Assembly: GCA_040285855.1 (NCBI GenBank)
Contig: JAUFOQ010000005.1
Location: 2,232,001 to 2,296,000 of the forward strand
Direction: 5' to 3'
Source: Eukaryota sp. GEM-RC1
Taxonomy: Eukaryota
DNA: 64,000 bases
How positions within the stretch are numbered: position 1 is the first letter of the stretch; every line of letters begins with the position of its first letter. This document shows positions 20,711 to 62,377 of this stretch, piece after piece. The position numbers and the translations under genes are program-made. The notes beneath the pieces were generated by a model, which saw only the letters and a list, made by a program, of their open reading frames with translations, was not told the origin of the DNA and ran no database searches.

Positions 20711-20856
20711 ACCATTCCATAATCGTTTGTGGTTTCTCCAACCACAGTGACGACCTTTACGATCAGGGCTCCTGTAAAGTGGTTCTGGAAACGCTTCTCG
20801 AATCAGAAAGTATGAAGTACCTTTCAAGTCAAATAGAAACCGAAATCAATTTCAAC

Positions 20857-22064: not shown

Positions 22065-22537
22065 CTTTCAGTTATCGATGTTGTTTCAGTGGATGTTTGC
22101 AAAAAAAGTTGTAACAAGTTTAATACAAAGGAAATCTCACCTTTAGACATTGCTGAAAATAACAAGCAAAGAAAGTATGCTGATCCTTTGAAAGACCTGA
22201 AACACATTGTCCATGTTGAATATTCACTTGTCCCATTTGCGATTTCCGTATATGGTAGATTATGCAAATTGGCCTTGAAGTTCCTTGATGAATTTGCAAA
22301 AGTTGTAGCTCCTAGAACCAACAAAATATTTGATCGTTCTTTTGGCAGAACCGAATTGTCTTTACGATTCTAAAGGCAGTTCCCACAATGATTTCAAAAG
22401 CTTTGTTATCCCTAAGTGTGTTTTATGAAGACAAAGCTTCAACAAGGTTCGATTCGAAGGAATCTTGTTTTGATGACATTGAGTATTAGATCATCTTCTT
22501 TTTAGTTTCGAATAAAAAAACATATAACAAAAAAAAG
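22065..22537 (+). mobile_element. 5'-truncated CRE-like RLE retrotransposon with 10-bp TSD
   Basis: DVVSVDVC...SPLDIAENNKQRKY...VPFAISVYG. A-rich tail. CTTCCCAATA at 22055-22064 and 22538-22547. Confidence 0.88.
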
Positions 22538-28142: not shown

Positions 28143-29183
28143 AGTTAAAGACGTTTTTGGAAGTGTTTATTGAATAATTTGTTTCTTTTGGTTTTTGCAC
28201 AAAGTTGTGTTAATAATACTTACTATTATAAATATTGTGAGATTCTGTATCTCTTTTCTAAACGGTCAAAGCTATCAACACGTGTGCTACTTCTAAAGGA
28301 CCATCAATTCACAAAACTACTCTTGATTTTAAGGAAATACAGAGTATATTGCTTTGGTTTTGAAAAGTATACGATATTTAACTATAATCAAAAAAGACTT
28401 GTAACCATAGTATAATGAATAGTTCCAATATGTATTATTGTAATTCTTGAAGCCAATCTGAGTAAATACACTCAGTCTAATTTTATTCAATCAATTATCA
28501 CATAGTTATACAAGAATTGTGGTAGTGTTGACCAGGAATTTCCAGTATCTTGTGTTTCATAGTTTGTCTTTTGATGTGTATTTTTGTCCTCTTCATGTAT
28601 AAACAGTTTTTCACCCAAGATGACGTCACATGTATACAACTTTTATAACTCGCTTATACTGGCTCATGATCAAGAACTATCTATAGATGGACAATCAGAA
28701 CATGTAGTTTCTTCTTATGATGACTATAAATGGATAAACTAGGATAAAGGATTGTTAATAACAAAAGTGTATTGAATAGAGATACTAGTAAGTAAGCTCT
28801 GAAGATATTCATGTAATTCTATAAATATACAACGCTGAACATTGTGGGTCATGATGAGATTCACTCTCAAACAAGAACTCAACACAGACTGTCAAATCAA
28901 TTGATGTGAAATGCACGTCGGCAGATTATATACGTTATATAGAAGATGTAATCTGAGTTATGTTGACATAGCCCGAGTTCCGATGACCTTATCTGAGCTT
29001 TTCAACAGCCTTGATTCAAATCTTCCAGTGGGTAAAGTCTCATCCACTTGTCAGAGATGTTCAAATTTTACTGTATCTATCCAGATCCTTAAGAACAAAC
29101 GATACGCACACACTTGATAGCCCTAGTGACTAGAGAGTTCGAATAGTTCATGTTTTAAATACCAAGTTGAGGATGATGGATAT

Positions 29184-30328: not shown

Positions 30329-31167
30329 ATGGTCACACCTCGTCGTCATAAATCTTTGAAAAGCCGTCGTTCATCCCCTTCCAGTATTTCCTCTGTGATA
30401 TCTCACCGTGGTGGACTATCGACATTGTCTTCATCCACACATGCTTCCTCTAAACGTGTCCATGTTCAGCAGACCTTGTTAATTCTTATCCATCTCCACT
30501 TGCTGAGACGTCTTATCAAGCCTACTCTCGAAAACAATCATGATCGAACTAATCCTCAACACGATGCTTTGAAAAAACGTTACCTACATTCTTTGGACAA
30601 GTTGGCTATGTAAGTAATCACTTCCTTGATTCTTCATTCCAAGCAGTTAAAGTATATTTTCAATTACACGCATTTCATGCTGATCTTGAACACCTTCCTA
30701 AACTAATTTCACTTGCTTCTTTCTTTGGAGCAGATCTACAATCTGTTTTCTTGCACGCTGATGGAACTTCAGAAATTGAGAAATTTCTTAATTATTCTGG
30801 TATAATTACAGGATTGAGAATCGAACTAAGGGAACCCTCTGATTTAGAGTTTCTAAACAATTCTTCTTCTTTATTTCCACGTCTTAAGCAGCTAGAAGTA
30901 GAAGTGTTCGAACGCATCTCTGTTTCTATGTTATTGATTGAAGCGTTGAAAACCAATACTACAGTTACAAGTCTTGATCTGCAGTACAATTCTATTAAAA
31001 CTGAAGGTGCCAGATCTTTGGCTAAAGCTTTGAAAGTTAATACTTCAGTTACAAGTGTTAATCTGAGGAACAACAACTCTATTAAATCTCAAGGTGTCTT
31101 AGCTTTGGCAGAGGCGTTGAAAGTTAATCATCGAGTTGAAATACGCAGAGTAATTAATAAATACTAA
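30329..31167 (+). CDS. LRR-family gene (unknown N-terminal domain + 2 RI-like LRRs); frameshift at ~30578
   Basis: Close paralog of 38432-39606. HVQQTLLILIHLHLL domain followed by VTSLDLQYNSI...ALAEALKVN. Confidence 0.75.
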
Positions 31168-32253
31168 TTACTAATTAATGTCGATATAAAATGGTTTGTC
31201 TTGCCTGTTGAAATTCTAATGAGTGTGAAGACATTGCATTTCTGATGGATTTCCAATGACTTCTGTTTTATTTATTGGCAATAACATGTAAAAATTAAGA
31301 TTCGAGGATGTAATTGCACAGTCTCAGTGAGACTAATTCCGATATGAGAGTGTCATTTAGACCTCCCAAATACAACTTCTGTTGTTTTTAACAAGAAAGA
31401 TACATCAAAAATTCAAATAATTGAATGAGCTTTTACAGTTAGACGAACTTTTATACTGATAGGATCAAATTAAAACCTACTTAACTAAATGATTCCCCTC
31501 TCACCACTCTAAAAAATCTCGAAATCTAAATCATTTTTTATAGCTTCATTCGTATCTTTAATGCTCAGAGTATCTTCTAAAATCCAACTGGACATGAAAC
31601 TGGAGTTTTGCATGTATATAAGTTGACCGTTGATCTTCAAGAAATCGTGAAGAAACACAGATGTATCAAACGCAGAGATATTTGGTAAAGAGATGGGAAA
31701 CTACTGGGGAATTCATTTGGGTGCATACTCCCCAAAATCATTTTACACCAAAAACTCTTCACCCCATAACCACATATCCTCAAACTGATACACTTATACC
31801 TTCTTTGATGGATTCCATACATCTTTTGATATCCAGTGTTGAGCTTCTTCCAAGATAGAGGCGTGTTTGCAGGTATTCGTTCTTAGAATTGTGAACCGTG
31901 TTCAACCATGTCATGAATAAACCCAACGTTGTACAACCATCCTACAACACATACATCACATTGACATCTTATCCTCCAAAGGAACACACTCAGGTTTGCT
32001 ACAACTCTGCTGGTTTGCTACAACGCCGATCGTGTAATACACTGCTGTGTCTTCAGTCATTTTTGACTGCATTTTTGCATAGCAACTCAAAACATGATAA
32101 TGAAATCAGACTGAGGTTTTTTATCATCATCTACAAGAAGCTAAGATGTGTTTGTAGACAGTACAATGTACCAAACTGACCAATTGCAGTTGTATTTATA
32201 GGAGTTAGATCAAATTCTGAATTGCCTGTACACAAATAATTGCACCACGATAC

Positions 32254-33171
32254 ATGCCCTTTACTTTAACAAACTGGGACCTTCTTCTAGATGGCGAAGA
32301 ATTTGAAAAACTTCGTCAAGATGCTGTCTGGAATGAGACTAAGGTAAACGACATCAAGTCCATGAAGCTTCATGCTTCAGAAGACACCAAGATTCGTGCC
32401 GTATACACTTGCCTTTTTCTTGGCAAATCTCAGTCAGAAGTTGCCAATTTCTTTTGGGTCCATCAATCTACAATTAGCCGATGGATTCACCAATTCTTCA
32501 ATCGTGACTCTTTACAACGCTGCTCTTCCAGAACCTCAGTTCTCACAGAAAGTGATGGTCACTTTATTCAGCAAGTACTTGAAGAAAATCCTCTTCAGTT
32601 TTTGAAAGAAATTCGTCGTTTGCTGGCAACTGAACGTGGAAAATTAGTTTCAGTCTCAACAATACACCGATATCTTGTTGAAAAGCAAAATTTCTCTTCT
32701 AAAAAAAGCAAAATTGCTGGTGAAAAAAGCAAGAACGGAATCACTGCTGCGATTTGAACAAAGATTCAATCAACAATTTGAACTGGTCAGCCAAGATCAG
32801 TTGGTCTTTATTGACGAAGTAAGTTTAGGGATTGTAACATCAGAAGGACTCATGGATGGTCCCCCAAAGGTTCATCAATTCTATCCCGAGCTTCAAACCT
32901 AAAAGAAGGGCCCTTGAGTTTTGTAGTGGCAATTACAGTAGAGGGATACTTGAACTCCCATGCTGTTCAAGGACATTTTAGCAGGTTGCAATTTGTGTCT
33001 TTTTTACGAAGTCTAATTCGGAACAGGCAACTGAATCAATATCCTGGTAAAAGATCTATTGTGATACTTGATGGTTGTCGGATACATATCCACAGAAGCA
33101 TTACTTTGGCATTAAAGCTTGCTGGCGTTCATTATCTTATATTACCAGCTTACGCTCCTGAGATGAATCCA
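32254..33171 (+). mobile_element. IS630/Tc1/mariner-superfamily transposase, frameshifted and truncated before the catalytic Glu
   Basis: HTH SQSEVANFFWVHQSTISRW and second HTH VSVSTIHRYL. Catalytic VFIDE and VILDGCRIH. LPAYAPEMNP ends without IE. Confidence 0.88.
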
Positions 33172-33361
33172 TCACAACAGACTACAAACCAGAGAAGAGA
33201 AGAGATGAATAGACTACAGACCGAAACAGCGAAATCTGTTGGTCTGAGCTTTTGCCCATCATAAGGATAAGGAAAGAGCTAAAACAAGAAAGAATTATGT
33301 AAGCACAACAGGTTGGAAGTTCCAACTTGGAACATGAATAAAAAAAATAGTATTTATCATA

Positions 33362-34102: not shown

Positions 34103-34438
34103 GAGAGAGATGTTTATTCGGCACCCAATAAGGTAACCTTTCTACAAACTATGAAATTGTAAAAACAAACAAATAATACTAAGATTAAATCCAAACGACT
34201 TCATCACCACCCGGTAAAAGATTACGTTTATCTACATGAACCTTCACACCAAACTTGTACAATTTCTCAATTAATCTAGAGAAATAGAAAGGCATATTCC
34301 GATATATGGAAAACACTATACGGTTTTTCCATTCAGCCATTCTAAACTTACGCTTCTTTTCTTTACACAATTCTTTGAAATCCTTGAAAAATTGATCTCC
34401 AGCAGGACTAATAGATCCAAAAAGAGAAACAGCAAAAA
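34103..34438 (-). mobile_element. 5'-truncated CRE-like retrotransposon with 13-bp TSD
   Basis: Almost identical to 54943-55275. ATTTGATGTAAAA at 34090-34102 and 34439-34451. Confidence 0.9.
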
Positions 34439-35016
34439 ATTTGATGTAAAATGAGTCGATTAGATAGAGATCGTCGTACTTTTTTGCTTTGGGAGATCGT
34501 TTGTTTATGAACTGATTGCATTTCACTGAGTCAAATCCAGAATAGATGATGAACTAATGAAACAAAAAAGTTCAACATATAACTAGAATTTCAACCAGAC
34601 CCTCCTTCATGACTTCTCTTCTCCAATCTATACCATCAATCCACCCTATACCTATTTTATGAATTTCCTGATGTTTAACAAGAGAATCAGGAAGTTGTAC
34701 AAGTTGAAGACGATGTAATTGGAGAGTTAGTGGAGATCCATGACGATGCACTAATGTTGGATACGCTGTCACCAACTGCAGGAAAACGCAAACGTTGACA
34801 ACAATCTACTACTGTACCGTTAACGTTGAGTCCTAGAGATGAAGATTGACTAACGTGGATGTTTGTATTTTACTTTGTATTTTAGTGTATTTTATGTATT
34901 TTTGTATTTTTGTATTTTTCAAATGAAAACTCGTGTATTTTACAAGTATGGTATATATTCATCAATGGAAGAAAAGCTAATCTGAAAGATTAGGATGAAA
35001 TACATCCTGGGCCTCA

Positions 35017-37154: not shown

Positions 37155-37787
37155 AATTTATTCATTTTCGATCAATTATTCACAACAGTATCCGGGATAC
37201 ATGTTTGGATATGTTTAAGGCTAATGGTTTTCATGGAAAAATTGAACCTTTACTTGCTAATCTTTCTGATCAGCCAACAGTTGATAGAAGTCGTGGTGAT
37301 TTGATTGGTCCTTGGTTATCTTGTCAGGAAACAATCATGGATTTCACAACTGTTGATCCTTGTAATTCAAGATCAATTTTCAAAAATTTTGATGATGATT
37401 TTTCTGCTCTTGAAGTGGCTGAAAAGGAAAAATACAAAGTACTGTCACTTAATTAAACAATTGAATGTTGACAGGTACAATTCTTTTGTGTTTCAACCTT
37501 TTGCGATGTCGATATACGGTAATATTGGGGCAGCTGCACAAGGTTTATTAACTTCCTTTGGTAAATTGTGCTCTGAGTATGGTAAAGTTTTCAATGAAAA
37601 TTTTTGGTTGAGTAGGTTAAAGTTTGCGTTGTTTCGTTCAATGCACAGATATTTTAATTCAATTTTATGTAAGTTGTTCGGTGATGGACAGAAGGATCAT
37701 AGTTTAGATACTTTAGTTAGTGTCTGTTAGTTATTAGCTTCTGCAAATGCATTTATTTCACTGACTGATCATAAACCCCGTTTTTTC
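37155..37787 (+). mobile_element. 5'-truncated CRE-like RLE retrotransposon with 11-bp TSD
   Basis: IHNSIRD...KIEP...RGDL...MDFTTVD...AEKEK..KY...FQPFAMSIYG...FWLSRL. AATTAAAGTTC at 37144-37154 and 37788-37798. Confidence 0.9.
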
Positions 37788-38431
37788 AATTAAAGTTCTT
37801 ATAAATATAATTACTTTAGAATAAAATAGTGTGGGTGCTAGCAAACCTGCGATTAGAGAAGCACTTGTAGCCATCAATGTTACTCTGGTTTATTTGGCAA
37901 ACAACGCAACAGTTCTTGTTCAACCTGCTGATTTGTTTTATATCAAAAAAGTCAAGTGTAGCTTTAAACATATCGTGTAACACCTTGGTTGATAATAGAG
38001 CAGATTCAAGGAAATGATTACTTACATATCCAACCAGTGATCGTCAAACCGATTATCTGTAATGAATCTGGAATGGCTACTGACTAGTGATGTTCCCATC
38101 AATACTTATGCTTAACGAAATCAACTGGATCAGGCTCAGAATCTTCTTGGAAAAAGTAATTTAAATCATTACAACGATATAATTTTGTGTTGAACACAAA
38201 ACACTTTTTTATTTTATATCCAAATATATCAAGATTTTGATTTTTCTTTACTGGGAGAGCAGTAATTGATTGAATGACTCTTCTCAACAAAGGCAACAAA
38301 AGTTGAAGAAGACCTTGACATACCTTGACAGTGCTGCTTTACTAGAGAGTTAGAGTGGTTAATGGTTTTACTACCAAGTGGACAGTAGGAAGTTTGAAAG
38401 AATGCAGAAAGACCTCATTTCTTCGGCATCA

Positions 38432-39606
38432 ATGGCCACACCTTGTCCTGAATCTTTGAAAAGGAGTCGTTCATCCCCTTCCAGTATCTCCTCTGTGATG
38501 TTAAACTGTGACGAACTGTCTGTATTGTCTTCATCCACAGATTCTCCCTCTAACCGTGTCCATGTGCAGCATACTTTGTTAATTCTCATTCATCTTCACT
38601 TGCTGAGACGTCTTCTCAAGCGTACTCCCGAGACTAGTCATGATCGAACAAATCCTGAACTCATTGCTTTGAAAACAGCATTACCTGCATTCTTTGGACA
38701 AGTTGGCTATGTAAGCAGTCACTTCCTTGATTCTTCATTACAAGCAGTTAAAGTGTTTTTTCAATTACACACCTTTCATGCTGATCTTGAACACCTTCCC
38801 AAACTAATTTCAGTTGCTTCTTTCTTTGAAGCAGATCTGCAATCTGTTTTCTTGTTCACTTACGAAAGCTTAAAAGTTGAGAAATTTCTGAATTATTCTG
38901 GTATAATTACAGGATTGAGAATCGTACTAATGGAACCCTCTGATTTAGAGTTTCTAAACAATTCTTCTTTATTTCCACGTCTTAAGCAACTAGAAGTTAT
39001 AGTAGCGAGACAACGCACCTCTGTATCTATGTTATTCATTGAAGCGCTGAAAACCAATACTACAGTTACAAATGTTAATCTGATTTACAACTCTATTGGA
39101 GATGAAGGTGTCAGAGCTCTGGCAGAGGCGTTAAAAGTTAACACTACAGTTACAAGTGTTGTACTACGTGACAACTCTATTGGAGATGAAGGTGCTAAAG
39201 CTTTAGCAGAGGCGTTGAAAGTTAATGTTACTGTTACAAGTGTTGACCTGCAGGACAACTCTATTGGAGATGAAGGTGCTGAAGCTTTGGCCGAGGCATT
39301 AAAAGTTAACACTACAGTTACAAGTGTTAATCTGTGTGACAACTGTATTGGAGATGAAGGTGCCAGAGCTTTGGCAGAGGCGTTGACAGTTAATACGTCA
39401 GTTACAAGTGTTAATCTGGCTGACAACTCCATTGAAGATGGAGGTGCCAGATCTTTGCAGAGGCGTTGAAAGTAAATACTTCACTTACAATTGTTCATTT
39501 GAGTTGGAACCCTATTGGAAATGAAGGTACTAGAGCTTTGGCAGAGGTTATAAAAGTTAATCCTACAGTTAAAATAGTGCGAGTAGAACAACTCAATAGG
39601 TCCTAA
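38432..39606 (+). CDS. LRR-family gene (unknown N-terminal domain + 6 RI-like LRRs); frameshift at ~39457
   Basis: Six 28-aa units xTxVxLxxNxIGDEGAxALAEALKVN. The final repeat and stop (39604-39606) lie in the shifted frame. Confidence 0.85.
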
Positions 39607-40844: not shown

Positions 40845-41210
40845 ATCTGGAAAAGGCTGAACAGCGAAAGTGTTCAAATTATGCGGATGCTTTGCAGAAA
40901 CTTAATGAAAATCTATATTCTAAGTTTTCTTTTGTTCCATTTGCAATTTCAATTTTTGGCAATATTGGTCCAGCCGGTTTAAAAGTTTTTTAGTGATTTT
41001 AGTCTTTTATGTCGTTCTAATGGCAAGGTGTTTAATAGCGCTGTATGGATTAATCGAATTATGTTTGCTCTTTATAGAAGCATTCCCAAGTATTTATGTT
41101 CCATATATTCGAAGTTGTATAGGGACAATTCTCGAGTTGATGTGGAGAATTTAACTTCTTTCATTTTCTGAATTAGTATGTATTAATTTATTGTTGCAAA
41201 TAAACTCTTC
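40845..41210 (+). mobile_element. CRE-like RLE retrotransposon 3' fragment
   Basis: LEKAEQRK..NYADAL...PFAISIFGNIG...WINRIMF. Same family as 14180-14485. Confidence 0.75.
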
Positions 41211-46794: not shown

Positions 46795-46929
46795 GGATAA
46801 ATGTGAAGATGTGGGTAGACAGGAAGTTTTTCTGAAAAAGCCTCCCTAACAGTAGTTTTCATTTTAGGTGAATACTACTGTAGTATCCCCATTTTACCAA
46901 CACCCAATTCCCACAAACTCTTTTTTACT

Positions 46930-47050
46930 TATGGGATATACTTTTGGAATGCTTTGGGACTCAAGACTCAACTTAACGAGCATGTCTATCCACGCTTCGG
47001 AAGACACCAAAGTGAGGGCTGTTTGGTCCTTTCTCTGGATGGGGACGATC
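46930..47050 (+). mobile_element. Relic N-terminus of an IS630/Tc1 transposase
   Basis: MSIHASEDTKVRAVWSFLWMG matches MKLHASEDTKIRAVYTCLFLG of the 32254 transposase. Confidence 0.7.
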
Positions 47051-47965
47051 CATCTTCTGATTAGTCATCAGAGACTCTGATGATGCTTCTGTGCTCTTGC
47101 GTGAATTTTATTCCCCTTCCCTTTCCTCTCCCCAACAATTCCCCCATCTCCTCTTCTGTGGTCTGTTGTGTCCTTTTATACATGCCATTATCCTTCCTAA
47201 GGTTATCTGAAGTACAATCTAGTGCAGAACTTCACTTCCTTCGTATTCAATCGAGGTAGCTTCTTTCTTCCATTAAAGTAAGTTGAAGTTGTATTTCCCA
47301 TATGTGATTTTAAATCTCTGAGATAAATATTGTTTATTCGTAATTAGAACCAACCAATGTGTGCTGCAAATAGGGATAATTACCTACCGATATATTTGTC
47401 TCGCAAAGGCAGTTGCTTCTGCAATTTCCAATTGTTTAGTAATATAACCATTGGGTTTTTAAGACTGTATATCCTTGGTCTATCGCACAGTAGCAATAAT
47501 CAGTCATATAGAATGCTTAAAGAGAGGACTGGATGTTGTCACACTTGTTTTCAAGGTGTTTGAGAGAAGTCAAAATGAAGTAAAAGTAGGAACAAAGGAA
47601 GATCTGATGATGGGGACTGAGTGTTTCTAAAAGGAAGACGGGTCTTGAGTTTCTGGCAAAAGACTTCTGATCATTGTCGCCTGAATAGAGACCGAAAAAG
47701 GCGCATCTTAAAAGATAGAATCGTGAATGAAACTAACATGAAGATATTCTGAGAGAGTGAGGTATAATGACTAAAATTGTTGAGAGGAGGTAGGATAGTT
47801 GTACACAGTATCTAGAGAAGGAGACAAAGTTTTGCCATAAATTAACCGAGTTGTAAAGTGGAAAGTAAACTGTTGACAAACTAACAATCAAGTTGGAAAC
47901 TGAATCCTGTTGAGAGGAAAGTGACAAGAACGAATCACAATGTCGACAATTGTTATTTCCTTCCC

Positions 47966-50849
47966 ATGCCTCCTCTCAGTCTTCCCGAAGTAGTTCACGG
48001 CCCGGAGTATACATTTTATCCTTGTGGTTCATCCTCTCAGAACCATGGTGACACTATATTTCCCCCGCCTCTTAAGAAGTCTCACCTGTCTTCTGTAGAT
48101 GACATCCCACTGTATTGCCTTATTGATTTTAAAACGGTCATTACCGATAGTGAACGACTTACCCCACTCCTTTTCAATGTGAAGAAGAAGTCTCTTCCGA
48201 AATGCCCTACTACACAATCTTCAACAGAACTGGTTTCTAAAGAACAAGAGACTGCTGAAGTTCCAACAATCAGTGAAACAATTGAAGTGTCCAGGCCAGA
48301 GCTGGTACCAAATGCGGAGGATGATCAAATCATCCTTATTGTCCTCACATTTATTTACACCAATTTCGTTTCTACTGTTGTCATCAGTACCAAAGAAACA
48401 AGTGATTTTGATGGTGTTCAAACAATTACTTTTCCATCAGAAGAAGTCATGATTAATGGTCTTATATCTTTAATGTCCGAGAAAAAGCCTAGATTGCTTA
48501 TAAGTTATAACTCTGAAAAATTATTGTTCCCGTTTTTAATTGCACGATGTAAACTTTTGAACATCTCCACCACATTTAATGTGGATGAGCCATTCAGGCC
48601 TTTTATTCCCATCTGGTTCTATAGATGGTGTAAGCAAAGCGAATTTGGACCATTTATTTCCCTTGACATGGCAAATGTTGTAAAGTCAACCTATGTTTTC
48701 AAAGGTGGTAGAGGTTTAGAAAATGTTTGCTCCAAATTGTTTCAAAAGGCAATACCTAATTTAATTTTATCACCAACTGAATTCAAAACTTACTTCAACC
48801 AATTCAAAAAAATCCTAAAAATATCAACGGTTAGCCCTGAAGGGGAGAGGGAGTTTACTTTGCTTGCTCAAAATATTAAAACTTCCAAGTTATGGATGGA
48901 TGACAGAAAACGCAACTCTCTGGTTGAAGATTTGCTGAACAAAATTAAGATGTTGTCCGAATTGAAGAATTATTTTTTTGATGAAGAAATTCAGCTTGTT
49001 TTAGACCGCCCTCCGATTAAAGTCGTAAAAAAAGGATTGGATAAGGTTTTCAGAGATTATGAAAACATTCAATTAATTAAAATTTGTTCTAAACGAAATC
49101 AAAAAGCAACTGTGAGGGGGAACCACCTTCTTGAAGCATTTGCTTCTACGTGAATTTGAAGATTTTGGAAGAATCGAAGCTGAATCAATAGTCAAAGAAA
49201 GAGAATTGATGTTACTGCACGATGACCCTTCGTTGTCCATGATTGGAAATGATTCTGAGTCTTTTGAGAATTGTAATATCTGCTATAATTACAAAGACTT
49301 TTCGGTTCGCTTACCAGATTTGAGTCCTTTTTGGCTCTTGGTTCAATAAGGCACGTTCTCCGACGAATGTATGTGGAGAAAAAAAAGGCTTGCGGTATTT
49401 CCGACTTGAAAATGTCAAAAATAGAAGCAGAAGCAGTTTTGCAAAATGAAAAATTTGATCATTCTTTGAAACAAAAAATCGCATTACACTACTGTAATAA
49501 TTTTTGACCAATTCTTGACTCTCTGTCTCATGAAATTGGAAGTAACAACATTTCTTTTCCTAATTTGGAGTTTATGTCAGGCATATATCATTATACGGCT
49601 AAACAAATTGAAACCAATTATGCTAACAATTTGGCGAAATACTTACACAACTATGTCTTTCGCTACTTTAACATTGTTACGTTGAAGAACTATCGTCTTA
49701 AACAAATTAAAGAGCAACACTTAAAGAAGGAATTGAAATCAAAATTAAATTCCATCAGAGAACTGATTATTAATGGAAACTTTGAAGACATTCCAATTGA
49801 TGATCATATCATTTTCCCCCTTCCCGCAATCAGAATTGACTTTAATCTTTTTGCCTATTTGAAATTCTGTTTGTTCCCTACCATTGCCAAAGGCAAGAAT
49901 CTTTACTACGCTCAGAAAGTCAAGCCACTAAAATTTCTTTCTCATGCTGTTTATATCAACAGAACCATTCAGTCTTTTTGTTCAATTGATGGAAAACCCT
50001 TAAAGGTTAATAATCCGTTCCCAATGACTAAGACGTTGGTCCCACAGCATATTAGATTAGACACTGCTTGGATAAACCAAAGAGTTTTAAATTTGAAAGG
50101 TTCCGCTAACGTTATTCGAAAGGAAGTATTTGACTCTGTACTTACCAAAGCTGCTATTACTTCATCACGATCATTTGGTCTGAAGTATTCTTCGATTGTA
50201 ACAGATGGCATTTCTTGTTCCTTGGTTATGATTCGAAAAGATTTGCTGGATGAAAACGGTAACACCTTTGAAGACTTTACCGCAAAACCACTAATATCTT
50301 CGGAAAGATATATTGACTCTTTAACTTCGGAAGACATTGAAAAATTGAACCTGACAGAAAAGAGAATAATTGGCATTGACCCGAATGAATATGACTTGAT
50401 GTTTTGCGTATCTCCAAAAACAAATGAAGAGATATTATTTGAAGAATTTTCTTGTTCCGACAACAGTCCCACGAAAAAACGGCTACCTTCAGAAATGAGA
50501 CTGAAACAGAAAGGTGGTATTAAAAAAAGAAAAAAACAATTGAACCAATGGAGACAAACCCCATCTCAACGAGTACGGCTGAAACCAAACCACTTTTTGA
50601 CCAGCTTCAGGTACAGTGCTGGGGAGAGATCATATGACCGAAAAAGCAAGAAATATCGGTTAACTGAAAGAAGAAAACTAAAAACTGCCTTCTTTGAAAT
50701 TACGAAAACAGAAACTGAAAGATCGCTCCAAGATTATACAGTCGAAAATTCTAATGGTAGAACTGTTTCTGGTCAAGAAATCTTTGAAGAAATATTTGGA
50801 TTTGTTCTTCTATACACACAATATTTTTCTAGAGCTATGGTTCTGTTGA
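47966..50849 (+). pseudogene. PolB-exonuclease-like domain fused to a Fanzor1-like (TnpB-family) protein; disrupted and 3'-truncated
   Basis: Exonuclease-like: LIDFKT, VPNAEDDQIILI, FPSEEVM...KPRLLISYNSEKLLFPFLIARCKLL, LDMANVVK...LENVCSKLF. Fanzor1-like: IKVVKKGL, FLKHLLL, YTAKQIETNYANNL..Y...YFN, FPMTKTLVPQHIRLDT, IVTDGISCSL (50201), RuvC-I IIGIDP (Asp 50378), FRYSAGER. Disablements at 49116-49120, ~49320, TGA 49505-49507 and ~50771. Confidence 0.8.
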
Positions 50850-51375
50850 CCGGGACTTTGTTGTGTCTAGTGTACAATAGCTGTAATATTGATAAGTCTT
50901 TTTGTCCATTTATTGTTTTTCAATGTTGAACAAAACAATCTCTAACCGAGTTCAATGGACAAATTGGATAACAATCAGTATACATCTAAGTTGACCCCAA
51001 TTAGTTCGTCCGCAGCTCCAAACATAGTAATCAGTTTTAATTAACTCCGTATTACAGTTTAACTCGACCAACATCCAGTTTATAGAGAATAATACAAGCA
51101 AACACTTCTACTTCCTTGTATTGGGGCCTTGCTTGTATTGGAACCTTGCTTGTATTGGGACACCAACGATATTTGTCAAAATTTACGGCACATTACTGCT
51201 GTAAGTGGGATTGTTGTCACTGCAAATTAAAAAAAAATCCCTATATAAAATACTTCCAGTGGACAACCTTAACAAAATTCATAAATAAAAAAAACAATAA
51301 ACAAATACAACTGACGAACAAGAATTAAAACACTCATTCAACGTCAAAAAACCCAAATATCAATCAATCAATCAA

Positions 51376-52182
51376 TCACCTTCTAAATCTGGGATCTCTA
51401 TCACGTGGCCGATCATCCCTCCTTCTTCCCTCTCTAGGTCCTCCCCTTCTACGACCCCCACTACCACGTACATCTCTAAAATCATCACGTCTCCTTGCAT
51501 CCTCTCTTCGATACCCACTCTTTCCCTGAACTTTTCTCCCTCTTCTATCATCTCTCTCCTCCTCTCTTACAGTTCTTCCTGGTCCAACACCTCCACCAAG
51601 ACGACGGGGAAGCCATCCTGAACTAAGTCTAGCTCGTTCATAGTCAACTACGATGGGTTTACCAGCAATCACAGTCCCTTGTAGATTATGAATAGCATCT
51701 TTAAGATCGTGTGAGTGCTTGAACTCAACAAAGGCATATCCACAAGGCTTAACAACTTCCCCTTCATGAGAGTTCATGGGGATTGTTACAAACCTCACTG
51801 GACCGTACTTCTCAAAGGCTATACGTAGATCCTCTTCGGTTGCAGTGTAGGACAAACGACCGACAAAGGCAGTTTTATAAGGGTCAGAGATTATGTTGGG
51901 ATCAGCTTTTGGGTTGTACACAGAGATAGAAGCTTGAAGTGATTTAGCGCGTTCAATGCGTTTTTGTTGTTTTTGGAAAACAAGTTTATCAGCTTCTGCC
52001 AAAGGATTTGGGTTATCGTGAAGTGATGATATCATTGGTGGTTGAGATTCAAGACGATCTAGAAATTGATGAATTCCAGAGATAGTAGGTGGTTGTGGTT
52101 GGTCATCAATAGGAACATTTTCCAAGGCAGGGCGAGGTTGGAAGAGAGTGAGGAGTGCTACTGGAAGAACAGATGCGATCAT
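51376..52182 (-). CDS. SNRNP70: U1 snRNP 70K
   Basis: LLTLFQPRP; DPYKTAFVGRLSY; RRM GYAFVEF; VDYERAR...WLPRRLGGG; RD/RG tail. Confidence 0.95.
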   Translation of the reverse strand: MIASVLPVALLTLFQPRPALENVPIDDQPQPPTISGIHQFLDRLESQPPMISSLHDNPNPLAEADKLVFQKQQKRIERAKSLQASISVYNPKADPNIISDPYKTAFVGRLSYTATEEDLRIAFEKYGPVRFVTIPMNSHEGEVVKPCGYAFVEFKHSHDLKDAIHNLQGTVIAGKPIVVDYERARLSSGWLPRRLGGGVGPGRTVREEERDDRRGRKVQGKSGYRREDARRRDDFRDVRGSGGRRRGGPREGRRRDDRPRDRDPRFRR

Positions 52183-53928: not shown

Positions 53929-54238
53929 TGGCAGTCTATGGTCTATTTTTAGTGTTTTGACTTTGTACATCTTATCTATTCAGAGCTTGAACAATTAATG
54001 TATTTTATTCCTCGAACATTCAAATTTTTGATAAACATCGGTACTTACAGCAAAATTAAAAACCAATGGACAGTTTGTTATAAGAGAGAAAATAATTCAA
54101 TCAAGATGACCTGTTGGTGGAGTTATCAGCTCTTCAATGGTGAAAAGCCAAATATCCTCCAATTATTACCACTTTAAAACGCACACATCCTGATACAGAA
54201 TCCGTATTTTTATGACACACAGGTTGGTTGTTTAGTTG

Positions 54239-54881
54239 CAGGGCTCCTCATAAATAAATATAAATTCTATTTATTTATATTTATTTATATTTATATTTAT
54301 TTTTGAGCCTTTTGGCGATCGTGCAAATAAAACAAAATAAAACAAAATATAAATAATTATAAATAAAATGTCGGTAAGTAAACTTCATTGATCTGTATTA
54401 TACATCGGTTAATTTAGTGCTCAAGGTTGTTGATTGACTTGAAACATGATTTGTGAAATACTCACATTAGTTCAATATCAGCATCGTGGACGACCGTGAG
54501 AATCGCTCACTGATCATACGCCCGGATATAGTTGTGGGATTGACTTAGAAAACAGGTAAAGGCTCGTCTGCATCGGTTAAGTTCAACATTGAAATGGCAA
54601 TGTTTGAGGAAAATTAATTGACTTTGATTCTGGGCTGAGTTGAAGATCCACATGTGGCGGCGACACAGTTATATGAAGCAGAAAGTCAACTAACCTTTAT
54701 CTACAAGAAAGGGATGATCAAATGGATTGTGTAATCATCGATAGTGACTGAGAGAAACTGTACTAATAAAATATTGTATTTTTATTTGGGTTTTATTTTG
54801 TTTTAATTATATTTATTTCACATTTATTTTTGGCACTTTTTGATGTTCAAATTATTTTAAATTATCTTATGAGAGGGCCTG
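54239..54881. mobile_element. Non-autonomous hAT element with 8-bp TSD
   Basis: Imperfect TIRs CAGGGCTCCTCATAA / TTATGAGAGGGCCTG. TTTAGTTG at 54231-54238 and 54882-54889. AT-rich subterminal repeats. Confidence 0.85.
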
Positions 54882-54942
54882 TTTAGTTGAACTCGTTGCC
54901 CTATTCGATTTTTTGAAATTGAAATTGAAATACAGTAATAAT

Positions 54943-55750
54943 GAGAGATGTTTATTCGGCACCCAATAAGGTAACCTTTCTACAAACTATGAAATTGTAA
55001 AAACAAACAAATAATACTAAGATTAAATCCAAACGACTTCATCACCACCCGGTAAAAGATTACGTTTATCTACATGAACCTTCACACCAAACTTGTACAA
55101 TTTCTCAATTAATCTAGAGAAATAGAAAGGCATATTCCGATATATGGAAAACACTATACGGTTTTTCCATTCAGCCATTCTAAACTTACGCTTCTTTTCT
55201 TTACACAATTCTTCGAAATCCTTGAAAAATTGATCACCAGCAGGACTAATAGATCCAAAAAGAGAAACAGCAAAAGGTTGAAACACAAATTTGGAATATG
55301 AGTTTCTATTTAATTCTTCTACTTGAGAGCCATACTTGGTGTGTTTGAGCTTTTCAGCTGCTGTTAATGGATTAAAAAAAGAATCTAATATCCTACTAAC
55401 ACAAGATTTGTTACATACATCTACTGTAGTAAAATCCATTAATGCTTGACTCGATTTAAGCCACGGAGTATGTAGATCCCCTCGTTTTTGATCAGTAAAT
55501 TCATTTTCTGAAAGATGATTCAAAACTGGTTCAACTTTAGAGTGAAAACCATGTGCTTTAAACATGGAATAACAAGAATCACGTACACCATCATGAATTA
55601 CTGCACGGAGATGAATAAAATAACGACAATTAATTAAATGACGAAAAACACCATTAGCTCCACAAGAGCACGTTGAATAGTTTAATAAATTTGCAGGCCA
55701 AATAGCCAAACGAAGACGCATATTGATCATCCAAGCTTCATCAGATAGAT
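54943..55750 (-). mobile_element. Longest CRE-like retrotransposon fragment: zinc knuckle + RLE endonuclease
   Basis: RLRL...CSCG....RHLINC...IHDGVRD...VEP...RGD...MDFTTVD...AEKLKHTKY...FQPFAVSLFG. Confidence 0.9.
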
Positions 55751-56194
55751 GTAATCAAATAATGTCTCTACATGTACTAATAAAGGTAATAAATATATGA
55801 ATGAAAATAAATAATAAATAACTTGAAGATTCAAAAAGTTGAAGTGTCTCAATAAGCGCAGACGTACTTGTCGATCTGTAGTTGACGGATCTCCTTTAGA
55901 TTTTACTAGGATACATCCAGTCTTGATGCAGACATTGATATCTAGCTTCAATCGTTGTTTTTAGAACATTTAGTTCTTGTAGTAAGTAGGCATGAAATGT
56001 TTGCAAACGACTATACATTGTATATTTGGACTGACGCGAACCATAGTATTATGTATTTTTTTCACAAATGACCATGTAAACGACATGTTTATTAGTAAAA
56101 GAAACGAACAAATAGATTTTAAAGCGTTCTGAAAAAAAAAGCCTCATGTATTGAATGCTTTTGTTTGTTTTATTATTTTATTATAAATGTAATA

Positions 56195-56450
56195 GATCAA
56201 ACAACTAGAATTTGATATCATTAAAACAACACCCGTCGCTATCAAACCTTACAACAGCTTTGTCCCCATAAAAGGAACTCACTGCTAAAGAAGCTTTGGA
56301 GATGATTGGGGGAATTGTATTAAAAACAGTAAAAACGATCCGATTCAACCATAACATATGATCAAAACGTTTGTTCATTTTATTTTTATCGATTTTTCCG
56401 AAATCGTTTATAAAATTCAATGTACTTTTTCCTAAACGTCCATAAATCGA
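56195..56450 (-). mobile_element. CRE-like retrotransposon 3' fragment
   Basis: FDHMLWLNRIVFTVF...FYGDKAVVRFD, similar to the end of 22065-22537. Confidence 0.7.
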
Positions 56451-58116
56451 ATCTTGGATTTATCATGGTTAACTTGACAAGGTTGTGACAATCTAAAACG
56501 AACTTTCGTTTTAAACTAATCACGAGCTTTTGTCAAAAATACAAATATATAGTGTTTATATAGACTCATCTAGATCGTCTTTTATAGTGAAAAAGTTTAG
56601 AACGTCTAATTTAATTAGTTATCACGTAGTATTTGATTCAATCATAGTCATTCTTGTAACACTGAAAAATTAACAAGCATCATGGAGACCAATTTTAAAA
56701 TCGATGAAGTGCTCAAATGTACGACTAGTATATGTTAAATGAATTTGAAATAGGTATAACGATTTATTCAAAGTTTGAAGTGATTGAAGATCAGCTTATT
56801 GACTACAGAATTGTACAGAAACTGCGACATAAGACACATATGTTGTCCAAATAAATATTAAATAAATTATAAAAAACGGGGTTTATGATCAATCAGTGAA
56901 ATATATGAATTAATAAACAAATTATAATGAAGTTGTAAAACAACTATGAGATCTTTACTATTGACCAGCAATTTTCCATGTCTAGTGTTTTCATAGCTCT
57001 CTTTAACTGTATTTAATATTAGATTTATAAGTAATATCTACTTCCTTTCTATAAGTCCTCCAGTCTGATCACGTGATCAAGCTGGAAAATCCCAAAAAGC
57101 ATTGACTATTCTTTTGCTCTTGGTCCCTCCATTTTCCAAGATCGGTTTCCTATCACAGCTCAATTTGGAATGTAAGTAGAAGCTTTGTTCCTATCCACTT
57201 ATTCACCTGCGCGCTCCACTGACATTTTGAAGCTTATTAAAATGTTTCCTAAATATCATCCTTCCAACCCATTCACTTTTATGGACAGTGATGATGTATC
57301 TCTTTTTTTCCCAGTAACAATGAGAAAGAGAAGAGACATTCTTTGGCAGAAGAATCTTATTTGTCAAAGATGCCGTATTCTGTTCACTGCAGGTGGGACC
57401 CTGGTGATTCAAGTCCTGTTAGTGCGGTCGTCAGATTTCTACTAGTGATATTGTCTTTGTCAGAACCAGATCAACTTCAACAGACTAAGAAGACTTTGAA
57501 AATATTAAAACTTCAATGAACACAGAAGCTCTTCGAAAAAGGCTTGTGGTCGTCATTGATTTCAATGAATTGTTTCGAGTTATTCTCCACCACAAACTTG
57601 ATTGTATTTTGCAGTAAACTTGTCGTATCGACAGTAGAATATATTATATTAAGGTATATTATCAATAGTGTCACACCAGATCGAAATATCACTCAAGTTT
57701 AAAGATATAAGTGATGACAAACCTGACTTTACCTAAATTTCATCATACTTCTTTTGAAAGAAGCAGTGATTGAATCGTAAACAAAGGAAAATGATGGGGA
57801 TTGCTCCCATCATCAAGAAAAGTATTTACTAAAAAAAATACAATGAGATCAAAATAATGACCAATTGGAGAGTTTTTTGGGATTTAAGCCAACTATTGCA
57901 AAGTTCGCAGATTTCTTTGGAAAAATTGGTATTTTTTCATCCTAGTTGTGAGTTTAAGGTCCTAATCTAAAGGAAAACAGTCCTACGATCATTAGTCTTT
58001 GGGGAAATAGACTTTACAAACTAGTTATCAGATGTGGGATTCAGGACGTTTCTCACCAGTACAACACTAGAACATATCACATCCTGAGCCTCCACTGCAT
58101 AGTAGTTGTTCATTGA

Positions 58117-58775
58117 ATGATACTCTTTCAGTTTCTCATACCAGTTGAGTCTTGTGGCATCTCCTTTTCGAATCCTAGCTCTAATGCATCCGCCTCTTCA
58201 TCTATCGTAGATTATCCTTCTTTTCATGTACACTTCCAACAGTCTCTCCTTATTTCGATCTATTTTCATTTTCAAAGTCAGCACTTAAAGTCATCCCTCG
58301 AATGGAACCGTGATCTCCCTCGCAGTGCTATCTATTTGTTGATGAAAGGTCTTCCCGCTTTTTTTCAGAAAGCTGGTTATGTCAAAGCTCATTTCTTTGA
58401 ATCACAAAATTTCAAATTTTGAATCTGCTCTACTAGCAACCAAACTCTTTTCCAAACAAACACGTTTCATGTTCTGACCAGAGACATCCCTCACTTCCAT
58501 TCAGTTTCTTCATTTTTTGAAGCACAATCGAAATCTATATTCGTACATGAAAACGCGGACTTTAATGTTAAAGAATTAGTCAGTTATTCGCCTTTAATTA
58601 CAGCATTGGAATTGACATTGAATAATCCCAGTGACTTAGAGCTTCTCAGCAGATCTTTTTGGATTTTCCAAATCTTAAGCAACTTCACGTGCGTACACCT
58701 TATTCTCGTTCTTCTGTACCATTGATTGAATTATTCAAATTTGATACTACAATTACAAGTGTGAATTTGAAGATT
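58117..58775 (+). pseudogene. Decayed LRR-family gene (N-terminal domain, truncated at the first LRR)
   Basis: HVHFQQSLLISIYFH...LPAFFQKAGYVKAHFF, homologous to the 30329 and 38432 genes. Several frameshifts. Confidence 0.7.
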
Positions 58776-59339
58776 CGATTTTGAACCGTCTCTTTGCATT
58801 AAGACATGAATTAGTTAATGATGTTTTTGTGTTTATTTTAGTGTTTTTGTTCCATAACTAGAAGAGATTAAAAAAAAGATGATGTACTAGTAGATGTATT
58901 TGTATCTCATTTGTTAATGATGATGATAGTTTGTATTTGTACGATTAAATAAAAGACGTTTTTTTAATCTTGCCTCTTGTGATGTTTTCATGACGTGATG
59001 TTGACGTCATCTGTTTTGCTGCACTTTATGTGATTGTTTAAAGATATATAAGACATTCAGATTTATAAACACTACAATTTTTGAATCTACGTGAAGTAAC
59101 ACATGTTCTATTACATCAACAGTACTTTTGTTAGTTTAAGCCTTTTACAACAATACTGATATAAAAAGTTAGGGGATTATCACATTCTTTAAAAACAACG
59201 TGTTTCGACAAATTCCAGCTGTAAATTCTCTCAATTCTTGACTTAGAGCTTATATGATGATCTGTTTTTTGGAACGTCTTAATTCACCCTGTATTATTCA
59301 GTCACAGCTTTTTATGACTTTCAAGTAATTGGTAATGAA

Positions 59340-59790
59340 AATGAACGAATTGATTTTAAATATAGTATTAAAGACCTTCATACCTTAAGTCTTGACGTTG
59401 TCGCTTTCAGGAATTGCTGCTTTATTTGGATGTGTTGAGGTTTATTTTTGATGTTATGAGCGTTTCTGTCAGATCTATTGTTTTGTTACTTTCAATGAAC
59501 AGACGCAGCAAAATAAGACAAATGTATTGTCAGTGATGACGAAAATATCTCCTCTAATAGGACAGATGTTGTTGTGCAGGATGATGACGAGTCCACTATT
59601 AGTCAAAGTGTAAGTGTCGTCGATTATGATCCAATTTATAACCAGAAAGTGTCAAACCTTTCACAAAAACAAAAGCTGAATGTTACTAAACTACTGAAAT
59701 TTATTTTGTTGATATTGATTTCGGTTTCTATTTGACTTGAGAGGTACTTCATACTTTCTGATTCGAGAAGCGTTTTCAGAATCACTTTGG
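59340..59790 (-). repeat. Paralogous segment lacking the 20857-21770 hAT and 22065-22537 retro insertions
   Basis: Its reverse complement aligns to ~20775-20856 + 21779-22064 + 22548-22630. Confidence 0.88.
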
Positions 59791-62377
59791 ATACATGCAG
59801 ATGGATGAAGCTGCTATCATTCGCGATGATTATTACAGTCTAATCCTCGTGATTTCATACAGTTTTTTCATCCAAAGGATTTAAAGTTCAACGATACTTG
59901 GCCATTTATTAAGGCTACTTTCAATTTGAGAGATTCTGAATCACGATTTACTCAGTTAAATCTATCACGTGATTGGGAGGACTCCATTTCTAAGATTCTT
60001 AATGATCTTGCTAGTGAAATATTCAACGGAAAACAAAATTTTGAAAATGAGTCGCAGATTTACGACCCAGATTTCCTGTACTTGTGTCTATCAATTTTTT
60101 AACGGGACCTACCGAAAGTATCAGAAATAGTTGGTGTCTATCTTAAACGTCTCTGTGGTACTGTGGTATTTCCTAAATCTTTCGTGAAATGTTCATCACA
60201 ACAGTTTTGCTTATTGTTTTTGTTATCTATGATTGATGAATATTGGAATTGCTGGTTGTGCCAGAGAGCTTCTCCCGGACAACAGTGCCAACTCTTCCAT
60301 CTCTGACAACTACCCATCACAAAAATCAATCACAGAAAATTGTGATTCGCAACTTTGGAATTTGAAACAATCAATGAGGGGAATTGCTCCCATCATCAAG
60401 AAAATTATATAAACCAACAACAAGTAGTGGTAATCAATGGGACCTAAATAATGCCCAATATCAAGGTCTTATGGAATTTAAGGCAATTTTCCAAAAGTTC
60501 GCAGATTTCGCCTAGTTTGCGAGGTTTTTAAGATATCTGCATGTCCTCCCTCTTTCCAAGTTCGAGCAGTTTGAAAGAGAGTATTGCCGCGTAGTTGTTG
60601 TTCTATAAAAAGGTGTACTTATCGCTCTGTAGTTGACGTATATCCTTTAGAGTTTACTAGGCCACAACCAATGACTACATCCGGTCTTAATGCAAACAAA
60701 AACCCCTAGTTTCAATTGTTGTTTTTATTACATTTAGATTCTTGGTGTAAAAATATGTGAAATGCTTGCAAAAAACCATTCTTTTGAATGGACGCCACTC
60801 ATATGCATGTCTATATTCTCCAGTTGCTAAATTGTTAAGTGTTGCAAGAGCTTATGTAGAAATTTTTTGAACTAGAGAAGATCTATCGAATCTATCATGT
60901 CACAATGACTACAAATACATTACTTAAGATCATAGTTCGAAAAGCGTACGACACGTTCGGTCACGTACTCCATACGCGCACGTGCGGAATACGAGCGGCT
61001 TCTTTTTACCGTATTCCAACGTATTCTTTTTTTAATACTGTTTTCTGTTAACCAGCAACTATTTTATATTATAAAATACTATTTTTTTAAAATAATCTTT
61101 TTATACTTATTTTATATACTAGAGTGTATCATAAATGTAATAAAATACTATTGATGAAACAAAAACTATAACTCTTTATTAAGTTAGGGATTCACAACAA
61201 TACGGTCTTCTGGTCCATCTTCAAGAGTGTCATGGTCCTAATCTTGAGGTTTAGCAAAAAACTGATCAGTTTCATAAGATCTTTTCCGTGATTTAAATCA
61301 TCTGGTGTTTCAGACTTTGATTGGCGTAAAGAAATATTCAATCATTCAGGAGTAAAGTTTGGATCCTATTTTGTTTCTTGGTTTTAATGACGAAGTGCAC
61401 AATGCAATTTCTCTCGTGAGCCACAAAGATTTGGGTGAATATGTCTCCATTTCTCGCCATGATGATTGTTTTTTGTATAGTCTACGTTTCTTCTCGTATT
61501 CATAAAACTCATTTAAAGCATCAGTGTAATGTTCTAATGTAATGGACCATACGATAAAAGAAATGCAACACGTGTTTATGTAAGAATACGGTATTCTCAC
61601 ACGTGTGCTGCCGTACATGGACAAAAGCTATTTAAAGATCGAGTTACCCTAGCTTTGACCATCAGTCTTACGAGGGAGAAACTACAATTAGTCGTGATTG
61701 CTAATTCACAACACCTTGTTGTCTTTCGAAATCAACGAATTGGACAGTTCGTTCGTTATTGAAGAAACACAAAACAATGGATGTTACGGCAGCTGTTTGT
61801 TGAATACTATAGGACACTAATCAATTACATGTCTAGCAATAACAGAATATTGGTATTGTTATTGACAGATTAAAAAATGTGGACGATCCAGATACAATCA
61901 TTCAGATTGAATTCGACAACAAACAGTCCCTCCCTTGGTTAGGTTCACTTTCGAACAACAGATGAACTACCTCGGGAACCCCATCTAATCTCATAAAGAT
62001 CAAGATCAATTCATTTAGGTCGTTCTAAGAACACTGGACCGCGAATACATTACAGCACGTAATAAAAAAAATGTGACAATGAACTGGGACATCCTTGATC
62101 ACCAACAAAGATGGTTAGATTTCATTCGTCGCTGCGACAAAGTCCTCAACAGAAGCACTGTGGTCAGAACCGAAAACTTATACGTCGCTTTGGAAGAGAC
62201 TATCGTAAGCAGAGCTTTGCTGACCAACATTGAGATCGACTACGACCATTATTTACTTGAAAAGCTAGGTATCAATTAACGGAACTTTACTAAAGAAATT
62301 AACTGAATCGGATATTGACTTTCAGCTAAATTTAAGCTTATTTTTCAATATGAACCAGTGCATTGAGTCTCCAACAA

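What the first reader, a model, noticed from the sequence alone, without database searches (positions are those of the whole stretch)
47966..50849. Fanzor1-like RNA-guided nuclease fused in frame to a degenerate family-B DNA polymerase exonuclease domain
Seen in sequence: the ORF track splits this locus into three pieces. Correcting one extra G in the G5 run (49116-49120), one missing T (~49320) and a TGA (49505-49507) gives one reading frame of roughly 950 codons. The fusion junction itself is intact: the exonuclease-like region (~48100-48970) runs without any break into IKVVKKGLDKVF...KRNQKATVRG, the start of the Fanzor1-like region. That region continues FLKHLLL, LPDFESF..IRHVL, YTAKQIETNYANNL..Y..YVFRYFN, FP.....VPQHIRLDT, IVTDGISCSL, RuvC-I IIGIDP and FRYSAGER. 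Established knowledge: this motif order is typical of Fanzor1 proteins from eukaryotic transposons and giant viruses. P-x3-D-x-II-x-I, F-x-SE-x-M, P-x4-YN...FP-x-L-x2-R and D-x12-L-x2-V are hallmarks of the PolB DEDDy proofreading domain. Here ExoI DxE reads DFK, ExoII FD reads LL, and no ExoIII YxxxD is evident. Inference: a Fanzor that has captured a catalytically dead PolB exonuclease fold as an N-terminal module, possibly for DNA-end or displaced-strand binding. I know of no described Fanzor with this architecture.
Basis: partly seen in the sequence, partly recalled or inferred. Interest (0 to 1): 0.9.

Follow-up and report, generated by a model that had tools for sequence, protein, structure and literature searches.

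The report
Fanzor fused to proofreading exonuclease
This is a broken, cut-short copy of a multi-copy gene of anaerobic protists in which an RNA-guided DNA cutter of the Fanzor type is joined to a DNA-polymerase proofreading domain; that domain has lost its catalytic residues here but keeps them all in unbroken relatives, where it would likely trim the cut DNA end to help the mobile element copy itself.

Summary
The fusion is real and is a family trait. The 5' piece hits Pfam DNA_pol_B_exo1 (6.4e-10), the 3' piece hits solved Fanzor1 proteins. Eleven sister proteins of Skoliomonas sp. GEM-RC cluster with the window's ORFs; one (KAL0248266.1, 1182 aa, 94-95% identical) runs unbroken from exonuclease to RuvC-II. 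Some GEM-RC subfamilies add a Ulp1-type protease. None of 71 other Fanzor ORFs has the domain; I found no description in print and no earlier scan note. Likely role (untested): chewing back the 14-17 nt 3' tail left by the cut so that repair copies the element. No activity, RNA, element ends or usable fold were obtained.

The parts
47966..50791 (+). Broken exonuclease-Fanzor1 gene, 942 codons, 3'-truncated
   Evidence: tblastn of sister P0040 covers residues 1-390, 385-458, 449-942 at 93-95% identity without gaps
48092..49006 (+). PolB-type (DEDDy) 3'-5' exonuclease domain, catalytic residues lost
   Evidence: Pfam PF03104 E 6.4e-10; aligns to P0008 268-579
48119..48139 (+). ExoI remnant LIDFKTV (D-x-E reads D-F-K; a D-S-E lies 7 residues on, register not certain)
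48503..48532 (+). ExoII remnant SYNSEKLLFP (F-D reads L-L)
48923..48943 (+). ExoIII position VEDLLNK (opposite YCLND of intact relatives)
49007..50791 (+). Fanzor1 part from its N-terminus to just past RuvC-I; RuvC-II, zinc finger and RuvC-III absent
49116..49120 (+). Frame break in a G5 run; 3 of 3 sisters that reach this point read through
49315..49333 (+). Second frame break (shared with P0035 and P0041)
49505..49507 (+). In-frame TGA opposite Tyr of sisters
50366..50389 (+). RuvC-I motif IIGIDPNE, catalytic Asp present
50809..50952 (.). Unrelated degenerate dispersed repeat that follows the truncation
   Evidence: similar to 12001-12102 (-) and 28475-28634 (+)
46874..47044 (+). N-terminal scrap of an IS630/Tc1-like transposase, 0.9 kb upstream; whether it belongs to the element is not known
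   Evidence: 38% to 32221-32754, E 2.6e-07; that copy hits HTH_Tnp_Tc3_2 and DDE_3

Best explanation
The locus is a dead, 3'-truncated copy of a dispersed skoliomonad gene family in which a family-B polymerase proofreading domain is fused in front of a complete Fanzor1, and in the intact relatives the predicted-active exonuclease likely trims the 3' end left by the RNA-guided cut so that repair copies the element back (homing). Shown: the architecture, copy number, motif states, one origin not ruled out for both halves. Established for other systems: Fanzor1 cuts the non-target strand 14-17 nt past the TAM; TnpB/Fanzor-type nucleases cut empty donor sites and drive gene conversion. Inferred: at an empty site that 14-17 nt stretch is a 3' tail that does not match the filled allele at the element junction and that could re-pair to restore the empty site; a tethered 3'-5' exonuclease would remove it. 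In the lineage of this window the catalytic residues are lost and the fold is likely kept as a DNA-end-binding or structural module, with host enzymes doing the trimming. The architecture I hold at about 0.95, the predicted exonuclease activity in the RCL copies at about 0.75, the tail-trimming role at about 0.45.
For: Domain hits. Own cluster of 13 (11 besides the window's two ORFs) on 7 contig sizes, P0040 continuous over 1182 aa. 6 of 10 RCL proteins with 2A-like motif, ExoI/II/III, RuvC D/E/D and 2 CxxC in one sequence. An independent profile of 54 true PolB exonuclease stretches aligns all three Exo motifs of P0030 in one match (E 7e-18 in a 6-sequence search). P0007, 30% identical, also keeps ExoI and ExoII. 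Five further GEM-RC proteins of other subfamilies run from exonuclease into the Fanzor N-terminus. Both halves form one group each, SH-aLRT 99, quick trees; A- and B-lineage identity is similar in both halves, 0.33 / 0.29 / 0.33. Cut positions: PMC10432273. Homing: PMC13565253. Precedents: T4 polymerase exonuclease affects intron homing (PMC2988022); yeast Pol delta proofreading chews back 3' ends and excises nonhomologous tails (PMC9477423).
Against: No activity, transcript, omegaRNA, TAM or element end was seen. The family multiplied to a dozen or more copies at >90% identity in GEM-RC with a dead exonuclease, so catalysis is dispensable there. All 71 other Fanzor ORFs sampled lack the domain. 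Engineered TREX1, TREX2 and T5 exonuclease fusions impaired MmeFz2 editing (PMC12923547). 3 of the 6 N-terminal sisters (P0001, P0037, P0039) end before the junction, each at a different place; 4 of 10 RCL proteins are partial. No GEM-RC protein seen has RuvC-III in frame (off-frame WNRD is possible at exactly one place, the tail of P0040 and P0043). The intact proteins are gene models known to me only as protein. 3'-5' trimming runs against the 5'-3' resection that recombination needs (established knowledge). No domain geometry: the one model had pLDDT 31.
Confidence: 0.45

Rival explanations
1. The domain works mainly as a DNA-end or displaced-strand clamp; catalysis is incidental and was lost without cost.
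For: Dead fold kept in at least four GEM-RC subfamilies about 25-35% identical to each other, with conserved non-catalytic blocks such as GPF.SLD...V.K..Y.F.GGR.L.NV; DNA-binding-domain fusions raised MmeFz2 editing while exonuclease fusions lowered it.
Against: All catalytic residues persist in the RCL lineage and ExoI/II in the distant P0007, which a pure clamp would not need.
Confidence: 0.25
2. The exonuclease roughens the break so that it cannot be re-ligated, making cuts destructive (deletion of target sites, attack on competing elements or viruses) and not helping homing.
For: Active-site motifs intact beside an intact RuvC; exonuclease fusions are used to alter repair outcomes of RNA-guided nucleases (passage).
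Against: Destroying the empty site gives a selfish element less than refilling it (inference); no guide or target data.
Confidence: 0.15
3. The domain is a functionless relic, left from a viral or mobile PolB gene next to which a Fanzor once inserted, and carried along.
For: Donor unresolved; long branch; closest free Fanzor clusters are mostly giant-virus (scores 0.75, lead only); decay in one lineage.
Against: Clean domain boundaries, no polymerase domain (PF00136) in any family member, frame and catalytic residues kept across about 70% divergence.
Confidence: 0.1
4. One-off junction, assembly or gene-model artefact.
For: Many copies are broken at homopolymer runs; the public skoliomonad assemblies are Nanopore R9 with Illumina correction.
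Against: Same junction in two species and several subfamilies; P0040 matches the window codon for codon over 942 residues, leaving no room for a bridging intron.
Confidence: 0.02

Closest known systems
Fanzor1 (SpuFz1 8gkh, GtFz1 9cer; Bao & Jurka 2013 PMC3627910; Saito 2023 PMC10432273)
   Same: Domain order, RuvC-I GIDP, rearranged RuvC-II Glu six residues before the zinc finger, WNRD, dispersed multi-copy occurrence.
   Different: About 300 extra N-terminal residues forming a PolB exonuclease domain, insertions that bring the protein to 1180-1490 aa (Fanzors quoted at 400-700 aa), 2A-like leader, Ulp1-type protease in some subfamilies. The window copy lacks the C-terminal third.
Proofreading domain of RNA-primed family-B polymerases (PF03104; archaeal PolB, Pol delta, giant-virus PolB)
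   Same: ExoI/II/III motifs and spacing in the RCL copies; profile hits archaeal PolB 4e-10, Pol delta 5e-09.
   Different: No polymerase domain; a ~40-residue insert after ExoI; forms its own long-branched group; dead in the GEM-RC lineage. Donor not resolved (no eukaryotic Pol delta rows in my tree).
Phage T4 td intron homing with 43Exo and DexA (PMC2988022; PMC12153337)
   Same: A homing nuclease that cuts away from the insertion site, helped by a family-B polymerase 3'-5' exonuclease.
   Different: There the exonuclease is a separate host-phage enzyme and the nuclease is protein-guided.
DEDDh nuclease accessory genes in P and piggyBac transposons (mentioned in PMC3627910)
   Same: A DEDD-family nuclease carried by a eukaryotic DNA transposon.
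   Different: DEDDh, not PolB DEDDy; not reported as fused to Fanzor.
Engineered exonuclease-MmeFz2 fusions (PMC12923547)
   Same: Exonuclease joined to a Fanzor.
   Different: Man-made, Fanzor2, TREX/T5, and they reduced editing; here the fusion is natural and long retained.
2A-like peptides of non-LTR retrotransposons (PMC3708506)
   Same: D(V/I)ExNPGP near the N-terminus of a mobile-element protein (RCL copies, P0005, P0009, P0019, P0020).
   Different: Here on a Fanzor protein; absent from the window copy.

Membership tests
Fanzor1 | Sequence similarity to solved Fanzor1 proteins from the N-terminus on | tested here: met
   9cer 7.7e-08, 8gkh 0.0017 for the window ORF; 8gkh 6.8e-07 for P0008; free-Fanzor profile covers P0040 348-1103
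Fanzor1 | Motif D-X(125,275)-[TS][TS]-XX-C4 zinc finger-X(5,50)-RD (PMC3627910), window copy | tested here: not met
   Only the first D is present; copy ends at ~50791. It is a pseudogene of the family.
Fanzor1 | Same motif, intact relatives | tested here: met
   6 of 10 RCL proteins; D to TS distance 280 in P0030, slightly over the quoted range; P0040 has D, E, first CxxC, with RuvC-III only off-frame
Fanzor1 | RuvC-II Glu six residues before the zinc finger | tested here: met
   EYRTSKxC in P0030 and P0040 (feature from PMC13565253); absent from the truncated window copy
Fanzor1 | omegaRNA at the 3' end and RNA-guided cleavage next to a TAM | not testable with these tools
   The window lacks the 3' end; no DNA of sister copies could be fetched; Rfam gave nothing above threshold
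Fanzor1 | Carried by a transposon (ends, target duplication, partner transposase) | tested here: inconclusive
   Dispersed near-identical copies; no terminal inverted repeat in 46800-51400; an IS630/Tc1 scrap upstream of unknown relation
PolB proofreading exonuclease (DEDDy) | Profile match above the curated cut-off | tested here: met
   39.3 bits (window), 49.4 (P0008), 58.2 (P0007) against 23
PolB proofreading exonuclease (DEDDy) | ExoI D-x-E, ExoII N-x3-F-D, ExoIII Y-x3-D in the window copy | tested here: not met
   DFK, NSEKLL, DLLNK
PolB proofreading exonuclease (DEDDy) | The same three motifs in RCL copies | tested here: met
   FDVET, YNCDKFD, YCxND in 7 of 10 RCL proteins, aligned by an independent PolB profile
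Family-B DNA polymerase | Polymerase domain (PF00136) after the exonuclease | tested here: not met
   Absent from all family members scanned; present in controls P0010 and P0012
2A-like StopGo peptide | D(V/I)ExNPGP motif | tested here: met
   In 7 of 10 RCL proteins (an eighth reads NLGP) and P0005, P0009, P0019, P0020; none in the window's six frames; skipping activity not testable

The most novel reading that the evidence does not exclude
Skoliomonad protists carry a natural two-nuclease RNA-guided enzyme: one polypeptide, released by a 2A skip, that cuts a guide-specified site with RuvC and then processes its own break with a captured proofreading exonuclease to steer repair towards copying the element; a first programmable nuclease with built-in end processing, with active and naturally inactivated versions side by side, some also carrying a SUMO-type protease.
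Probability: 0.4. Interest if true: 0.88.

Novelty: new variant of a known kind. Interest (0 to 1): 0.76.

Why it matters
What Fanzors do for their elements is stated as unknown in the defining paper. A Fanzor that has kept a proofreading exonuclease through deep divergence points to break-end processing as part of the job and gives a direct test: intact GenBank copies exist, with natural dead variants as controls. It also widens the known Fanzor architectures (exonuclease, 2A leader, Ulp1-type protease) into metamonads, and offers a naturally evolved exonuclease-nuclease fusion where engineered ones on Fanzor2 failed.

Tried and rejected
No whole genome was held, so element ends, flanks, omegaRNA and dN/dS could not be studied. 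No sequencing run was listed; this is no evidence on expression. Word-index protein searches for longer forms found nothing although P0008 and P0040 exist, so these blanks are false negatives; one search returned only the two RCL clusters. Locus scans with family proteins found no relative in viral contigs (one weak 65-residue hit L001, E 4e-4, not pursued) or metagenomes. AlphaFold2 of P0040 gave mean pLDDT 31, not used; no model of the active domain exists, so active-site geometry is open. The atlas search by features gave only sub-0.9 leads to giant-virus Fanzor clusters. My first guess that the frame continues past 50791 by a further shift was wrong. A Ulp1-like word on the minus strand upstream (47276-47383) got no Pfam or tblastn support. 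No terminal repeats, no Rfam match. PHROGs added nothing beyond PolB. Huang 1999 on T4 homing was not held; I rely on two papers citing it.

Full report
Observation. The region splits into ORFs 47885-49153, 49116-49349, 49289-49507 and 49508-50929. The first hits Pfam DNA_pol_B_exo1 (39.3 bits, cut-off 23) and archaeal PolB chains; the last hits G. theta and S. punctatus Fanzor1. Neighbours are ordinary eukaryotic genes: an EF-hand protein, U1-70K, a kinase, a pyruvate formate-lyase. No whole genome was held.

Relatives. A full scan of 1.84 billion representatives with the first ORF gave 12 hits at E<=0.001: 10 GenBank proteins of skoliomonads (7 GEM-RC1, 2 TZLM3-RCL, 1 TZLM1-RC) and 2 full PolB polymerases. 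Skoliomonads are free-living anaerobic metamonads (PMC11316075, passages). The window's two ORFs fall in one 90% cluster of 13; the 11 others are GEM-RC1 proteins with scattered locus tags. P0040 (KAL0248266.1, 1182 aa) aligns to the window in three gap-free blocks at 93-95% identity and reaches window 50791 at residue 942, exactly the codon count of the window stretch. Of 6 sisters that start at the same Met, 3 reach the G run at 49116 and all 3 read through it; the other 3 end earlier at three different places. After 50791 the window runs into an unrelated degenerate repeat found twice more in the window. The sisters continue through GYGDW and VDEYRTSKSCSKC; RuvC-III is not in frame in any, but WNRD can be read off-frame at one place only, the tail of P0040 and P0043. 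Many breaks sit in homopolymer runs, and the public assemblies are Nanopore R9 with Illumina correction, so some may be errors (inference); the truncation is not of that kind.

The junction. A profile from 23 non-redundant free-standing Fanzor ORFs starts on P0040 at residue 348 and covers it to 1103 (E 4e-61 in a 12-sequence search); it also hits the tails of P0016, P0020, P0021, P0003 and P0002, members of two other GEM-RC subfamilies, directly after their exonuclease domains. P0005, P0007 and P0009 end before that point, so their fusion is not shown.

Active and dead forms. Two RCL clusters hold 10 proteins. Six (P0008, P0022, P0025, P0028, P0029, P0030) have, in one sequence, DVEANPGP, ExoI FDVET, ExoII YNCDKFD, ExoIII YCxND, RuvC GIDP / EYRTS / WNRD and two CxxC pairs; P0024 stops before RuvC-II, P0023 starts at ExoIII, P0026 is Fanzor only, P0027 exonuclease only. 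A profile built from 54 true PolB stretches (viral and archaeal loci) aligns all three motifs of P0030 in one match. All GEM-RC forms seen have lost ExoII Asp and, where visible, ExoI Glu and ExoIII. In a quick tree of 65 rows (228 columns, SH-aLRT only, no eukaryotic Pol delta) the 9 skoliomonad domains form one group (99) and the 6 dead ones a subgroup (95), with active P0007 and P0030/P0025 outside it. In a quick tree of 28 rows the 5 skoliomonad Fanzor halves form one group (99), with a long-branch warning. One old fusion with later loss of catalysis is the simplest reading; it is not proven. The donor is unresolved: archaeal PolB 4e-10, Pol delta 5e-09, RB69/T4 1e-4 to 1e-5. P0005, P0019, P0020 hit Peptidase_C48 with His-Asp...Gln-Cys words intact; P0009 has one intact and one Ser-substituted copy. 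The window copy has neither 2A nor protease.

Control. Among 143 loci, 71 ORFs carry the motif in frame, 31 of them 579 aa or longer, the longest 854 aa; none of 2150 ORFs hit the family's exonuclease profile at E 0.01. Many loci are partial, and the sample is biased to one motif.

Mechanism. Shown for other Fanzors: SpuFz1 cuts the non-target strand after base 16-17 and GtFz1 after 14-17, downstream of a 5' TAM, and the biological role is called unknown (PMC10432273, passages). OMEGA nucleases cut the empty site and gene conversion restores the element (PMC13565253, passages and section 5.5). Inferred: at the empty site the TAM-side end carries 14-17 nt of the right flank as a 3' tail that is heterologous to the filled allele at the junction and can re-pair to rebuild the empty site; removing it favours copying. 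Precedents: T4 43Exo and DexA affect homing efficiency (PMC2988022, PMC12153337, passages); Pol delta proofreading chews back invading ends and excises 3' nonhomologous tails (PMC9477423, passages). Against: the dead lineage multiplied anyway; exonuclease fusions impaired MmeFz2 (PMC12923547, passages); nothing was assayed; the single fold was unusable.

Literature. Searches: (listings). Term searches in main texts found no 'exonuclease' in PMC10711439, PMC10530073, PMC10432273, PMC3627910, PMC13565253, PMC11423790, none in two supplementary text files of PMC10530073 (its domain figure S1B is a picture I could not see), and no 'Fanzor' or 'TnpB' in the skoliomonad genome paper (its supplements not read). 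10.64898/2026.06.03.729735: passages, nothing on fusions. PMC3708506: listing and one passage. Subscription journals and Repbase were not searchable. The scan's own notes held nothing on this family.

Verdict. Observation confirmed, interpretation partly supported. The window copy is a relic, but it marks an undescribed Fanzor1 architecture whose intact members are predicted to carry two active nucleases. New variant of a known kind; interest 0.76.

Noticed in passing
window 32221-33261 (+) and 46874-47044 (+): Broken IS630/Tc1-like transposase (HTH and DDE_3 hits) and a short N-terminal scrap of a relative just upstream of the Fanzor gene; Mariner-Fanzor elements are known, link untested.
   Followed up: partly
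P0005, P0009, P0018-P0020 (GenBank GEM-RC1 proteins): 2A-like motif followed by one or two Ulp1/C48-type protease domains ahead of the dead exonuclease and Fanzor start.
   Followed up: partly
window 55026-55754 (-), 37157-37727 (+), 34188-34451 (-), 40847-41147, 14181-14411, 3668-3949, 7605-7968, 22098-22423 and others: A dozen related degenerate pieces without Pfam hit; they look like the endonuclease tail of RLE-type non-LTR retrotransposons (label recalled, not tested).
   Followed up: no
window 8826-11137, 12192-13935, 30553-31167, 38363-39469 (+): Dispersed family of RING-like/kinase/LRR genes with 84-nt repeats, several frameshifted.
   Followed up: no
window 50809-50952, 12001-12102 (-), 28475-28634 (+): Degenerate dispersed repeat of unknown nature, 70-79% alike; one copy abuts the truncated Fanzor.
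   Followed up: partly
window 24005-26014 (-): Pyruvate formate-lyase gene (PFL-like 2e-187), fitting an anaerobic protist.
   Followed up: no
window 51111-51161: Three head-to-tail 17-nt copies between the Fanzor relic and U1-70K.
   Followed up: no
L054:2287-4848 (+): Longest free Fanzor-motif ORF in the control set (854 aa), no exonuclease hit; its extra residues were not examined.
   Followed up: no
window 19572-23501 and 54182-60452: Long inverted pairs at 80-98% identity about 37 kb apart, probably two copies of another mobile element.
   Followed up: no
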